Assembly (NCBI RefSeq): GCF_006345805.1
Contig: NC_043000.1
Location: 67,394,001 to 67,458,000, forward strand
DNA length: 64,000 nt
Source: Octopus sinensis
Lineage: Eukaryota
Direction: 5' to 3'
The position numbers were made by a program, and so were the translations under genes. Shown piece after piece: positions 33,915-41,885 of this stretch (position 1 is the first letter of the stretch; every line of letters begins with the position of its first letter). The notes beneath the pieces were generated by a model that had not been told where the DNA came from, made no database searches, and saw only the letters and a list, made by a program, of their open reading frames with translations.

Positions 33915-34100
33915 ACGCCGGACAAAATGCTTAGCGGCATTTTGTCCGTCTGCACCGTCTGAGTTCAAATTCCGCCGATGTCTGTTTTGCCTTTCATCAT
34001 TTCGGGGTCGATAAAATAAGTACCAGTTGAACACTGGGATCGATGTAATCGATTCATCCCCTCCCCCCAAATTGCTGCCCATGTGGCAAAATTTGAAACC
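33915..34100 (+). mobile_element. SINE family A ending in an (ATC)/(ATT) tail
   Basis: GAGTTCAAATTCCGCCGA..GCCTTTCATCATTTCGGGGTCGATAAAATAAGTACCAG..AAATTTGAAACC(ATC)n. Confidence 0.85.
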
Positions 34101-34134
34101 ATCATCATCATCATCATCATCATCATCATTATTA

Positions 34135-34480
34135 TGATTATTTTTATTTGATGCAAACTCACGGCTTATTTTCTTGGGTATGATGGAAAGTGTTAGCTGT
34201 CCACGGCCAGCAGACTAAGGTAACACTTGTTTACTACTCATGCTTCAAGAACCCCGCGAAGACTTCTTGCAGTTCCAAGCAATGCTGATTTTTGTAGGTG
34301 TCCTACCTTTGCATTTGTACCAATCCTTTTGAGGCATAATGGTAGTTGAGTGATGATACTTCCTGGTGCGCCATTTCCTGTTGGTACCACGTCAACTCTC
34401 TTCATTGACCGCAAACTTCGTATTTCTCACTTGAAATTGTCATAGTTGTTCAGTCTTTTTCCTCTTCAAATCGTCATATT
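34135..34480 (-). mobile_element. R4/Dong-like 3' fragment
   Basis: EIRSLRSMKRVDVVP..GAPGSI...HLQKSALLGTARSLRGVLEA*, then a short 3' UTR running into AAT/GAT repeats. Confidence 0.8.
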
Positions 34481-34655
34481 ATTATTATTCGTTATATTGT
34501 TGTTGTTGTTGTTGTTGTTATTGTTGTTGTTATTATTATTATTATTGTTATTATTATTATTATTATTATTATTATATTATTATTATTATTATTATTATCA
34601 TTATTATTATTATTATTATTATTATTATTATTATTATTATTATTATTATTATTAT

Positions 34656-35207
34656 TGAGTGCGTGAGAGAGCAGTGCATGCCATCAAAGTGACACTGGGG
34701 CAAAATATACGAAGCCCAGTATACCCATCATGACTACCCGTCTGATAAGGGTACACTAGGCACATGCATCACAACCATATGTGCGCGACATGGTGATCTC
34801 ATATCAAGATAAACAGCACATGACCTTGCAGGTGGGGCCCAGTTAGAATTTTCTTCTGGTCGATTAACCCATCCCACTCAAAAGGTCCCTGAATAAGAGT
34901 TGTTTAAGGTTGTTGAACGAAACACCAATGTTTCCAGAGGTGAAACCCCAAAGAATCCCTCTCAACACATGGCTATGATGCTCCCCAACTACTTCTGCTC
35001 ATGATCAGAGATGCACATATCGTCAGCCACTAAGGGACATGCTCAACTGGTTATGGTCAAACAACTGACAAGCAAATCTGTGGTATTGAGCAGAATATTT
35101 GCTGTAGCCCGTCTTTTATACCAAGACAAAACAATGTACATGATAACACTTCCAATCAGTTAAGATCAGCAGCCACGAGAGCCACTGCCTGGTACTGTAT
35201 CAGGGCA
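34656..35207 (-). mobile_element. Non-coding retroposed element, family D, copy 1 (longest)
   Basis: Closely similar to 35924-36415 and 62572-62919; all share the end ..GCATGCACTGCTCTCTCA(..)CTCA-(AAT)n or a close variant. Confidence 0.75.
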
Positions 35208-35848
35208 TTTTCCAGTGCCCGAGTATTGCTGAACTATGGGTTTCTGTCGAACAGCTACTGTCACGTATAGGACGGACACGGCTATCAGCTGAATCCATAG
35301 TGAAGACTGCCCCGCCGACCTCCTTTAACAAGGAGTGCAAGGCCGTTTTCCTGTGCCTAGTGGCTGTGGCGAAAGAGGTTGTATGGTGGACCCGTTTGAA
35401 AGGGCTAAAGTCAGACACTTTCCTCTTTGGTCAAGGCCACATCAACTTTTTCAAGTTTCACTTGAAAAGTAAGATGAGGTTAGAGAGGAGAGTGCTGTCT
35501 GATAGCAAGTTTTCTGAAAGGTGGGTGAATTGTGCAAGAATGGCCAGTATAAATGAACCAATTCTGAGGTTTCACCTGTAATTGAAAAAGGTATTATAAA
35601 AGGAGAAAGGGAATCTCTACCCCACTTTTGACCAGGCTCCCGTTGGCTTTTATGGGTTTTTCCACCAGGAACTTTTCGTAACGCCTCCCCCTATTGGGAG
35701 TTTTTCGTTGTTATATTATTTGATTGTTAAACTGTTTTTACACGATTTTTTCACAAACGGACAAAACCCTTTGTAACCTTTCGTCTTGTTTTGTCCCTTT
35801 ATGTTTTCTAATCATGTGTGTTAGCCCTTGTGGCCAATAAAAAGAATC
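35208..35848 (+). mobile_element. 5'-truncated Tx1/L1-like LINE 3' end
   Basis: CLVAVAKEVVWWTRLKG...FFKFHLKSKMRLERRVLSDSKFSERW C-terminus, T-rich 3' UTR, AATAAA at the end. Confidence 0.7.
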
Positions 35849-35923
35849 TATTATTATTATTATTATTATTATTATTATTATTATTATTATTATTATTATT
35901 ATTATTATTATTATTATTATTAC

Positions 35924-36415
35924 TGAGTGAGACAGCAGCGCATCCCATCAAAGTGACACTGGGGTACAAATATACGAAGATCAATATACCCGTCATGACT
36001 ACCAGTGTGATGAGGGTACATTTGGCACATGCATCACAAGCATATGTGCACAACATGGTGATCTCATATCAACATAAACAACGCATGACCTTGCAGGTGA
36101 GAGTCCAGTTAGAATTTTCTTCAGGTAAAGTAGACTATCCTGCTCAAAATCTCCCTGATAAGGTTTGTTTAAGGATCAACAAAACACCCATGTTTCCAGA
36201 GGTGAATTATTCAAACCCCAAAGAATTCCTCTCAACACATGGTTATACTGCTCCCCCATTACTTCTGCTCGTGATCAGAGGTGCATATATTGTCAGCCAC
36301 TAAGAGACATGCGAAATTGATTAAGGTCAAACAACCGACATGCACATCTGTGATATTGAGCAGAATACTCGCTGCAGCCTATCTTTTGTACCAAGACAAA
36401 ACAATGTACATAACA
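35924..36415 (-). mobile_element. Family D element, copy 2
   Basis: Aligns with 34656-35150; flanked by (TTA)n and (ATC/ATT)n. Confidence 0.75.
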
Positions 36416-39157: not shown

Positions 39158-39169
39158 TTAATAATAATA

Positions 39170-39352
39170 ATGGCTTCAAATTTTGACTCAAGGGAAGCAG
39201 TTTTGGAGGAGGGGATAGTCGATTACATCGACCCCAGTACTTGACTGGTACTTAATTTATCGACCCCGAAAGGATGAAAGGCGAAGTCGACCACGGCGGA
39301 ATTTGAACTCAGAGCGTAACGGCAGACGAAATACCCCAAAGCATTTTGCCGG
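39170..39352 (-). mobile_element. SINE family A
   Basis: CTGGTACTTAATTTATCGACCCCGAAAGGATGAAAGGCGAAGTCGAC..GGAATTTGAACTCAGA. Confidence 0.85.
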
Positions 39353-39456
39353 GTAATAATAATAATGATAATAATAATAATAATAATAATAATAATAATA
39401 ATAATAATAATAATAATAATAATAATAATAATAATAATAATAATAATAATAATAAT

Positions 39457-40970
39457 AAATATTTAGGGATAAATGAAGGCTCTGGTATTCAGCATGCAAG
39501 CATGAAAGAGAAGATCAGGAAGGAATGTTATAGGAGAGTTCGTGCAGTCCTGAAATCTGAACTAAATGCACGTAACAAGGTGTTAGCTATAAATTCCTTA
39601 GCAGTTCCAGTTGTTACTTATAGCTACAATGTGTTGAATTGGAATATGAGTGAAGTAAAGAATATAGATAGGAAAATACGCAAGCTGCTGAGTTGTAATA
39701 GGATGCACCACCCAAAGGCAGACGTAGATCGCCTTTACCTTCCCAGAGCCCAAGGATGTCGAGGCCTGATCCAATTTGAACTAGCTTACAAAACAACCAC
39801 AATTGGACTGGCCAAATATCTCGAAATATCGAATGACTGGATGCTAAAGCTCGTGGAAAATCACGAGAGACGAAAGAAGCTTCATTCTATCATAAAGGAA
39901 AGCAAAAAATTTGCTATTGATCTCGTGCAGGATACCCAAACTGAACAACCCGAGGGAAGTACGGCAACTATTGTTGCAAAGAAGGTGAAAATGATGGCAA
40001 CGAAAAAAGCGCACGTGCAATTGGCTGATAGGTGGGAGGAGAAACCTCTGCACGGCAAATATGTGACCCGCAGCAAACAAGCTGATGTTGACCAGAAGCA
40101 AACCCATCAGTGGCTACGGAGCTCAGGGCTAAAAGCAGAGAGCGAAGGTTTCATCCTGGCTGCTCAAGATCAAAGCCTATTAACCCGGAACTACCAGGCC
40201 AATGTGATGAAAAATGGAGCAGACCCAAAATGCCGATTCTGCAACGACATGATTGAAACAGTGGACCATCTAATCTCTGGATGTAAAGTCTTAGCACCAG
40301 TGGAGTATAAATTAAGACATGACAGAGTTGGCCAATATCTACACTGGCTAATAAGTCGGCATTACAATATCAAAACTGCCGACAAGTGGTATAATCACCA
40401 CCCTGAGGCTGTAACTGAAGGAGAAAATGTAACCATTCTGTGGGACTTTCCAGTACATACAGACCGAACCATCAAGGCCAATAAACCAGATATTGTTGTG
40501 AAAGACCAAAACAATAAAGTTTGCTTATTGATCGACATGAGCATCCCCTGTGATCATAATATCTCAGCGAAAGAGTTTGACAAGCACAGAAAATATAAAG
40601 ACCTACTCATTGAAATTGAGAAAATGTGGCATCTCAAGGCGGTTACAATACCAGTGATCGTAGGAGCACTAGGAATGATCAAGAAGGGAACCGAAAATTA
40701 TATGAGAATGATCCCTGGCTTACCATCCCTGCAAGAAGTGCAAAAGATTGTCTTAACTGGTACATCACACGTATTGAGAAGAGCATTGTCGATGTGAGAA
40801 CTATTGCTGCTCATGTATTTTAATTTAACTTAAAAAAAAAAAATTAACGAACTATTGAGTTTGGTTTAATGGCCTACCAATGTATACTATGAGTTTCTTT
40901 GCCCTAGGAGTCGGGAAGACACTCGGCAAGAAATGGAAGCAAATTTGAAAGAAGGAAAAAAAAAATGATA
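39457..40970 (+). mobile_element. 5'-truncated R4/Dong-like retrotransposon; 446 open codons from KYLG through CCHC and RLE (stop at 40797)
   Basis: KYLG, RLYLPRAQG.RGL, LHGKY, AAQDQ, CRFC..ETVDHLISGC, RHD, KPDIV, IDMSIPCD, KYKDL; (AAT)n on both flanks. Confidence 0.97.
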
Positions 40971-40984
40971 ATAATAATAATGAC

Positions 40985-41625
40985 GTAGACACAAAGTGTA
41001 GACTCTGCAACGAGAAACTTGGGAGTATTGACCATATTGTTGCCGGTTGCTCAGTCCTTGCCCCTACAGAATATAAAATCAGACATGATCGAATTGGTCA
41101 ATACTTGCACTGGAGCATATGCCGTTATTATGATATCCCACACCCTAAGAACACCATCCAGAGCCAGTCACTGAAAGAGAAAATGTGACCAATCCTATGG
41201 GATTATGGGATACATTCAGATAGGCAAATAAATACTAACAACCAGACATCATCACCAAAGACTTAACACAAAGAAATATGCCTGTTAATTGATATGACAG
41301 TGTTTCTGATTGCAACATCTCAGCAGAGAAATTTGAAAAACTGTCGAAATATGAGGATCTTGAAATTGAGATATCTAAGACGTGGCAATTTAAGACCAAA
41401 ACCATCCCTGTTGTTGTAGGTGCACTGGGAATGATCAAGAAAGTTACTGACAAATTTTTTTTTACCATATCTCTGGGAAAACAACAATCTATGAGACTGA
41501 AAAGATTGTGTTGACATCAACCGCCCACATTCTCAGGAAGTACCTCTCCAGCCAATATATACGTGCCTTAGGTCTCTGGTTGAGACCCGGTCGGAATATG
41601 AAATGAAATGCAAATCAATCGGATA
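40985..41625 (+). mobile_element. CRLCNE: Decayed R4/Dong-like 3' fragment
   Basis: CRLCNE..SIDHIVAGCSVLAPTEYKIRHD, NQPDII, KYEDLEIEI, PVVVGALG; ends in (AAT)n. Confidence 0.9.
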
Positions 41626-41699
41626 ATAATAATAATAATAATAATAATAATAATAATAATAATAATAATAATAATAATAATAATAATAATAATAATAAT

Positions 41700-41885
41700 T
41701 CATTCAATTTTCTTTGTCAGAAATTTTAGTTAAGAGATTAGTCAATTACATCAACTTGTACTTTATTCAACGATCTCGAAAGGATGAAAGGCAAACTTGA
41801 ACTCAGCCGGATTTGAACTCAGAACATAAAGTGCCAGACGAAATGGTACAAAACATTTTTTCCGACGGGCTAACGATTCTGCGAA
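41700..41885 (-). mobile_element. SINE family A, decayed
   Basis: GAAAGGATGAAAGGCAAACTTGAACTCAGCCGGATTTGAACTCAGAAC...GCTAACGATTCTGC. Confidence 0.75.

What the first reader, a model, noticed from the sequence alone, without database searches (positions are those of the whole stretch)
33915..41885. (AAT)n-centred retroelement nest with strict strand polarity, bracketed by SINE tails
Seen: five R4/Dong-like RLE elements of clearly different sequence, two family D elements and one Tx1-like fragment are stacked over 8 kb, mostly separated only by AAT/ATT tracts. Every RLE element has its 3' end in (AAT)n on its own sense strand, and the microsatellite strand flips near 39160 where element orientation flips. 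Both outer edges are family A SINEs whose (ATT)n tails point into the nest. Known: Dong elements of the R4 clade target TAA repeats. Inferred: SINE tails seed ATT microsatellites, Dong-like elements insert antisense into them, and each insertion renews the target, giving a self-amplifying nest.
Basis: partly seen in the sequence, partly recalled or inferred. Interest (0 to 1): 0.75.

Follow-up and report, generated by a model that had tools for sequence, protein, structure and literature searches.

The report
Dong retrotransposons stacked in AAT repeats
Two back-to-back piles of jumping genes sit in AAT/ATT simple repeats here, a pattern found across this likely octopus genome that fits the known habit of Dong retrotransposons; the short repeats (SINEs) at the edges likely landed in the same repeats rather than creating them.

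Summary
The elements are real: five RLE copies, two family D copies, one Tx1 fragment and a SINE-A at each edge. But this is two nests, not one. Two further SINE-A copies and about 360 bp without a recognised repeat lie at the 'flip', and two joints have no tract. Polarity holds genome-wide. A young RLE family ends in (AAT)n on its own strand in 94 of 95 copies, and 59 of 66 truncated 5' ends also meet AAT (background 0.7%). At random tracts RLE/D neighbours are AAT-sense 48 times and ATT-sense twice. This is the published Dong (TAA)n targeting. SINE-tail seeding is not the main source. SINE tails lie at only 8 of 70 outer 3' nest edges, SINE heads or 5'-cut starts at 15 of 41 outer 5' edges, so SINE-A likely inserts into ATT itself. 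The less ordinary parts are family D, a non-coding 553-bp element behaving like Dong with no partner found, and a Tx1 family of opposite polarity. The scan noted both before on other DNA of this genome.

The parts
33912..34101 (+). SINE-A (tail type A1), 5' about 27 nt short; tail faces the left nest
   Evidence: nhmmer; 88% to the A1 majority sequence
34100..34130 (+). (CAT)10(ATT)2 run shared by the SINE tail and the RLE1 3' end
34131..34476 (-). RLE1: decayed Dong/R4-like 3' fragment
   Evidence: profile hit iE 5e-7; 82-84% to other copies
34477..34656 (+). (ATT)/(GTT) tract
34657..35209 (-). D1: full-length 553-bp non-coding family D copy
35213..35848 (+). 5'-truncated Tx1-type LINE (ORF2 end plus 3' UTR); abuts the D1 head without a tract and ends in ATT on its own strand
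35849..35922 (+). (ATT)24 tract
35924..36411 (-). D2: 5'-truncated family D copy
36414..36773 (+). (CAT)15 plus about 106-unit ATT tract
36774..37676 (-). RLE2: young Dong/R4-like family, 5'-truncated
   Evidence: (98% to other copies)
37677..37733 (+). (ATT)19 tract
37734..38654 (-). RLE3: old, frameshifted Dong/R4-like fragment; 5' end joins a SINE fragment without a tract
38655..38803 (-).
38804..39159 (.). spacer between the two nests, no recognised repeat
39160..39355 (-).
39355..39456 (+). (AAT) tract, about 34 units, 5' flank of RLE4
39457..40963 (+). RLE4: very young Dong/R4-like family, 5'-truncated; 98.7% to a copy with a 1222-aa open frame (L090)
40970..40981 (+). (AAT)4 joint
40982..41624 (+). 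RLE5: old, frameshifted Dong/R4-like fragment
41625..41699 (+). (AAT)25 tract
41700..41885 (-). SINE-A, diverged (78-80% to the majority sequences); tail faces the right nest

Best explanation
Several Dong/R4-type retrotransposon families and the non-coding family D sit inside (AAT)n repeats with AAT on their own strand, here and across the genome, likely because the Dong enzyme cuts this repeat, while SINE-A and a Tx1 family lie in the same repeats the other way round and likely arrived as co-tenants rather than as seeds. Shown: target on both sides, polarity, stacking, the SINE head/tail counts. Inferred from Dong/R2 biology: the RLE nicks the ATT strand and primes reverse transcription; each insertion leaves a tract on both sides (medians 21 units 5' and 15 units 3'), so later copies land beside earlier ones. 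Inferred, untested: D borrows a Dong enzyme; SINE-A, whose commonest ATT-linked tail type resembles RTE-like 3' ends, is steered to ATT by pairing of its short ATT tail with the target.
For: RLE4 family: 94 of 95 3' ends AAT, 0 ATT; 59 of 66 truncated 5' joints AAT against 0.7% background; a fixed G before the TAA run in 71 of 95. RLE2 family: 25 of 25 located 3' ends AAT (7 of 32 not located). An older family: 17 of 20 AAT. D: 27 of 29 3' and 26 of 29 5' ends AAT, none ATT. 112 random tracts: RLE/D AAT-sense 48, ATT-sense 2; SINE-A ATT-sense 34, AAT-sense 6. 49 of 90 nests hold 2-6 elements. Tx1: ATT follows all 28 intact 3' ends of 29 other copies (read by eye). Literature: Dong targets (TAA)n in insects, molluscs and cnidarians (PMC7998251, section 3.3); in B. 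mori Dong the TAA repeats precede the 5' end on the sense strand (PMC3774820, primer and legend passages).
Against: No empty orthologous sites were examined (no relatives held), so the order of events is inferred. 7 of 66 RLE4 5' joints lack AAT, and only 9 of 15 RLE2 joints scored AAT, 3 of the misses being copies longer than the query. D shares no sequence with the sampled RLE 5' ends or 3' UTRs (best matches 10-15 nt). Tx1 5' joints show ATT of 3 or more units in only 4 of 17. SINE tails are still about 20-fold enriched at nest edges, which seeding would also give. SINE tails are more diverged than heads, so my search may under-count them. RLE4 and RLE2 copies were the top-scoring, hence youngest, hits.
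Confidence: 0.8

Rival explanations
1. SINE-A tails are born as short ATT runs, expand by slippage and found most Dong nests.
For: Both outer edges here are SINE tails; 8 of 70 outer 3' edges against 8 of 1500 controls; 25 of 41 A2-type tails carry at least 2 ATT units; SINE tails are a known source of microsatellites (PMC3812793, passages).
Against: 53 of 70 outer 3' edges have no recognised SINE; heads outnumber tails at nest edges (15 of 41 vs 8 of 70); 54 of 110 random tracts have neither SINE nor RLE/D beside them (20 long, 34 short, less sensitive labelling).
Confidence: 0.12
2. The AAT tracts are mainly tails that Dong and D write themselves; nests grow only by insertion into earlier tails, without a need for pre-existing microsatellites.
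For: Filled isolated sites hold a median of 41 AAT units (n=22) against a length-weighted mean of 28 for empty tracts (n=73), so insertion may add units; several copies without 5' AAT still have a 3' TAA run.
Against: 24 of 41 outer 5' edges are AAT tracts next to DNA with no recognised element, and 15 next to SINE starts, so a target existed that no upstream Dong tail explains; longer tracts may simply be preferred.
Confidence: 0.05
3. Passive accumulation or assembly artefact: repeats pile up in neutral low-complexity DNA.
For: The genome is repeat-rich (SINE-A 4.2%, RLE 3.3%, D 0.9% of 800 kb); long AAT tracts are error-prone in assemblies (own knowledge).
Against: Polarity 48 vs 2 and AAT at both ends of young copies cannot come from passive pile-up; the five RLE copies belong to different families.
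Confidence: 0.03

Closest known systems
Dong elements of the R4 clade (B. mori Dong, DongAg, DongBg, ostracod Dong1/2; 'Dong-R4' in octopus annotations)
   Same: Single ORF with RT, CCHC knuckle and RLE motifs; (TAA)n target; TAA on the sense strand at the 5' end (PMC7998251 section 3.3; PMC3812793 and PMC3774820 passages). Dong-R4 is the largest class of recently active LINE insertions in O. vulgaris (PMC13282606, Table 1).
   Different: Many coexisting families (at least ten 3' UTR types by eye) stack in one another's flanks and share the repeat with D, Tx1 and SINE-A. My searches found no paper describing such nests.
R2 SIDEs (short internally deleted elements of Drosophila R2)
   Same: Non-coding, short, fixed 5' end, same target and polarity as an RLE element, repeated 5' segments at joints.
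   Different: SIDEs keep the R2 ribozyme and 3' UTR identity (PMC3774820, passage). D shows no match to the sampled RLE ends and no HDV-like fold by my descriptor. D is dispersed, about 5x10^4 copies by extrapolation from 16 hits in 800 kb.
Kibi (TC)n, Koshi (TTC)n and crocodilian (TTCC)n/(TTTC)n Tx1 families
   Same: APE+RT Tx1-type ORF tied to a microsatellite (PMC4494074, passages).
   Different: The repeat is (ATT)n; support at 5' joints is partial (4 of 17).
SINE/LINE tails as birthplaces of microsatellites (Alu, L1, B2)
   Same: SINE-A tails carry ATT units and are enriched beside tracts.
   Different: Heads are enriched as much, which points to insertion into the repeat.

Membership tests
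Dong / R4 clade | Single ORF with RT followed by CCHC knuckle and restriction-like endonuclease | tested here: met
   1222-aa frame in L090; Pfam RVT_1 4e-24; CxxC-H-C, RH, PD..D, K..KY columns at least 90% conserved in 45 homologues (my strict regex for the RLE motif found nothing, and the motif names are recalled); only R2 proteins among solved structures
Dong / R4 clade | Insertion into (TAA)n with TAA on the sense strand at both ends | tested here: met
   polarity as in B. mori Dong (PMC3774820)
Dong / R4 clade | No N-terminal zinc fingers, divergent Myb/SANT-like domain | tested here: inconclusive
   No C2H2 pattern in the first 450 aa; conserved W58, W90 and an NKL..RR block; no profile-profile test against Myb was run
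Dong / R4 clade | RT phylogeny groups with named Dong/R4 | not tested
   None of the 120 listed homologues was named Dong or R4; no reference sequences were on hand
Dong / R4 clade | 5' HDV-like ribozyme | tested here: inconclusive
   The RLE4 5' end is structured but gave no descriptor hit and no ribozyme family in Rfam
SIDE-like non-autonomous RLE element (family D) | Same target and polarity as the autonomous element | tested here: met
   26 of 29 5' and 27 of 29 3' ends AAT, 0 ATT
SIDE-like non-autonomous RLE element (family D) | 3' UTR (and 5' end) shared with an autonomous partner | tested here: not met
   No match above 15 nt to sampled RLE 3' UTRs or to RLE4 and RLE2 5' ends; unsampled families remain possible
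SIDE-like non-autonomous RLE element (family D) | 5' self-cleaving ribozyme | tested here: inconclusive
   No descriptor or Rfam hit; consensus fold of 40 copies has 1 of 38 pairs with a two-sided change
Microsatellite-targeting Tx1 | APE endonuclease + RT ORF2 | tested here: met
   Exo_endo_phos 1e-16, RVT_1 1e-28 in L269; window fragment 88% identical. The Tx1 label itself rests on recalled C-terminal motifs, no tree
Microsatellite-targeting Tx1 | Repeat on both sides of the insertion | tested here: inconclusive
   3': 28 of 28 intact ends; 5': 4 of 17 with 3 or more ATT units, 13 not reached
tRNA-derived SINE (family A) | tRNA-related head with A and B boxes | tested here: inconclusive
   A B-box-like motif is visible in the majority sequences (motif recalled); ARAGORN found no tRNA and Rfam no tRNA hit
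tRNA-derived SINE (family A) | 3' tail shared with a partner LINE | tested here: inconclusive
   A2 tail resembles RTE-like 3' ends (z 2.4-4.6 in 9 of 11 related, non-independent copies; ends found for 11 of 30 loci), but those LINEs end in AAG, not ATT

The most novel reading that the evidence does not exclude
(AAT)n is a two-way hub in this genome. Dong enzymes load one strand with at least ten LINE families and with family D, which would be a roughly 50,000-copy SINE-like parasite of an RLE enzyme recognised without shared sequence, while a Tx1 family and SINE-A load the other strand. Together they would help make AAT the dominant trinucleotide repeat of the genome.
Probability: 0.5. Interest if true: 0.5.

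Novelty: new member of a known kind. Interest (0 to 1): 0.3.

Why it matters
The locus itself is an ordinary, large example of Dong stacking in TAA repeats. It helps explain why AAT is the commonest of eight trinucleotide repeats counted in this genome (0.56% of 800 kb against 0.16% or less for the others), and why such markers sit in repeated flanks. If D is carried by a Dong enzyme without sequence identity, it would give a natural test of how RLE proteins choose their RNA, which matters for R2-type gene-writing tools.

Tried and rejected
One nest with a meaningful strand flip: rejected, two nests. SINE tails as the main seed: rejected as the rule. RTE-like LINEs as D's partner: those sampled end in AAG. 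D as an internal deletion of RLE4 or RLE2: no shared ends. Ribozyme or known RNA in D or at the RLE4 5' end: nothing in Rfam, by descriptor or by covariation. Target-site duplications of SINE-A: 20 of 35 full-length copies have a match of 8 nt or more, several starting in TATT/ATT, but many are only ATT runs and no shuffled control was run, so this is a hint only. Ranking elements by age to test SINE-first order: identities to nearest sampled copies (72-99%) do not resolve it. A first flank classification missed decayed RLE and SINE copies and was replaced; counts quoted are unless stated, and its more sensitive profile changed the random-tract polarity from 46:0 to 48:2. One search aligned an unrelated stretch by mistake and is not used. 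The original Dong paper (PMC309301) is not held. PMC7348941, PMC12988792, PMC8967140 and PMC4758252 (passages) added nothing on targeting.
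Full report
Observation. The stretch 33912-41885 holds, in order: SINE-A (+), RLE1 (-), D1 (-), Tx1 (+), D2 (-), RLE2 (-), RLE3 (-), a SINE-A fragment (-), about 360 bp without a recognised repeat, SINE-A (-), RLE4 (+), RLE5 (+) and SINE-A (-). All five RLE pieces match a profile built from 45 homologues and the RLE4-family protein. The tracts switch from ATT to AAT because two separate nests lie back to back. Two joints (D1/Tx1 and RLE3/SINE) have no tract. The repeat families resemble those reported for octopuses (PMC9115989, PMC8967140, passages; PMC13282606, first third and passages), so the organism is likely an octopus; this is inferred.

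Sampling. The window lies in G000 (2.7 Gb). RLE4's C-terminus has 81,860 first-look candidates, and the 150 scored are 98-100% identical. I used 89 of those 150 places: 29 loci and 60 fetched. The window's own copy was left out, and the remaining 60, among them unplaced contigs, were not fetched. They hold 95 copies in 90 nests. As background I fetched 80 random 10-kb stretches from 24 large contigs; positions were drawn below lower bounds of contig length, so the sample is not perfectly uniform.

Target and polarity. 94 of 95 RLE4-family 3' ends run into AAT on the sense strand and none into ATT. A G precedes the TAA run in 71 of 95. Of 66 truncated copies whose 5' joint was reached, 59 have AAT there, against 0.7% of random points. 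Long copies whose 5' ends could be read also begin after AAT in L057, L263 and L264 (RLE4) and L331 and L332 (RLE2); L035 begins after an ATT tract with only a few AAT-like units, L330 shows none, and four more RLE4 copies gave no motif hit. RLE2-family copies gave 25 of 25 located 3' ends in AAT and an older family 17 of 20. At 112 random tracts RLE or D neighbours were AAT-sense 48 times and ATT-sense twice. Insertion leaves medians of 21 and 15 units on the two sides, and 49 of 90 nests have two to six elements. The target therefore pre-exists, survives each insertion and is reused. This agrees with published Dong biology: (TAA)n is the target in insects, molluscs and cnidarians (PMC7998251, passages and section 3.3; PMC3812793, passages), with the same polarity in B. 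mori (PMC3774820, passages and one section). The protein has RT, CCHC and RLE motifs. No tree with named Dong sequences was made.

The SINE. SINE-A covers 4.2% of the random sample, in three tail types. It is tied to the repeat in the opposite sense: 34 ATT-sense against 6 AAT-sense neighbours at random tracts. The tie is not specific to tails. ATT runs of three or more units flank 14 of 60 intact heads and 17 of 83 intact tails of types A1 and A2 (background 0.75%). At RLE4 nests, SINE tails form 8 of 70 resolved outer 3' edges, while heads or 5'-cut starts form 15 of 41 outer 5' edges (p=0.003). 53 and 24 of these edges have no recognised element; 20 and 49 of the 90 were unresolved, cut by the locus edge or without a tract. 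The window shows the same thing: the head of the SINE at 39355 abuts the tract, and at 9562-10270 SINE heads and tails both border AAT with no RLE present. The simplest reading is that SINE-A inserts into ATT-containing sites, which leaves ATT on both sides. Duplications beginning in TATT fit this but were not controlled. Seeding by some tails remains possible, and diverged tails may be under-detected.

Family D. D is 553 bp, shows no evident reading frame, and has fixed ends. 16 of 29 sampled copies start within 8 nt of the 5' end, 26 have AAT 5' and 27 have AAT 3', none ATT. Some joints repeat the first 15-240 nt, as RLE4 and RLE2 joints do; template jumping is the recalled explanation. It covers 0.9% of the random sample. 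It likely uses a Dong enzyme, but I found no shared sequence with any sampled RLE end and no ribozyme, so it works like an R2 SIDE without meeting that definition.

Tx1. The fragment belongs to a family with an 1145-aa APE+RT frame. ATT follows all 28 intact 3' ends among 29 other copies (read by eye), but only 4 of 17 reachable 5' joints have three or more ATT units. Tx1 families targeting TC, TTC, TTCC and TTTC are known (PMC4494074, passages); ATT did not appear in that text.

Novelty. Dong targeting of TAA is known, and Dong-R4 is known to be active in octopus. Seven literature searches found no account of these nests, of D or of an ATT-linked Tx1, but subscription papers, Repbase and supplements were not seen. 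Earlier notes of this scan already describe stacked Dong copies with D, and the ATT-linked Tx1, on other DNA of this genome. Verdict: new members of a known kind, interest 0.3.

Noticed in passing
window 58996-63382: A second nest: ATT tract, an older RLE copy, an RLE2-related copy (83%), a truncated D and a 5'-cut SINE-A after a short ATT run, with a SINE-A remnant at 58819-58894 on its left; same polarity as the rule.
   Followed up: partly
window 9419-10270: Run of SINE-A copies in one orientation separated by AAT tracts that touch both heads and tails, with no RLE.
   Followed up: partly
L013, L041, L049, L052, L245, L260, L293 (3' flanks): A repeat with a hammerhead-like CTGATGA...GAAA spacing (motif recalled; likely Penelope-type) directly follows AAT tracts: 9 right flanks in one orientation and 3 left flanks in the other.
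   Followed up: partly
SINE-A tail type A3 in random loci L091-L170: The A3 tail resembles the Tx1 3' UTR by eye and is rarely ATT-flanked (1 of 51 tails); other notes of the scan cover this SINE/Tx1 pair.
   Followed up: no
L050, L053, L060, L063, L088, L261-L266: Long RLE4-family copies carry a roughly 440-bp unit two or three times in the 5' UTR.
   Followed up: no
L197, L297, L319, L043: Direct (AAT)n/(ATT)n junctions where elements of opposite orientation meet, the exceptions to strict polarity.
   Followed up: no
L201-L230: Decayed RTE-like LINEs end in a short (AAG)n tail, and their last 40 nt resemble the SINE-A2 tail.
   Followed up: partly
window about 32840-32870, minus strand: A broken frame reads a P-loop-like GGTGK motif, possibly a decayed helicase of a rolling-circle transposon (label recalled).
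   Followed up: no
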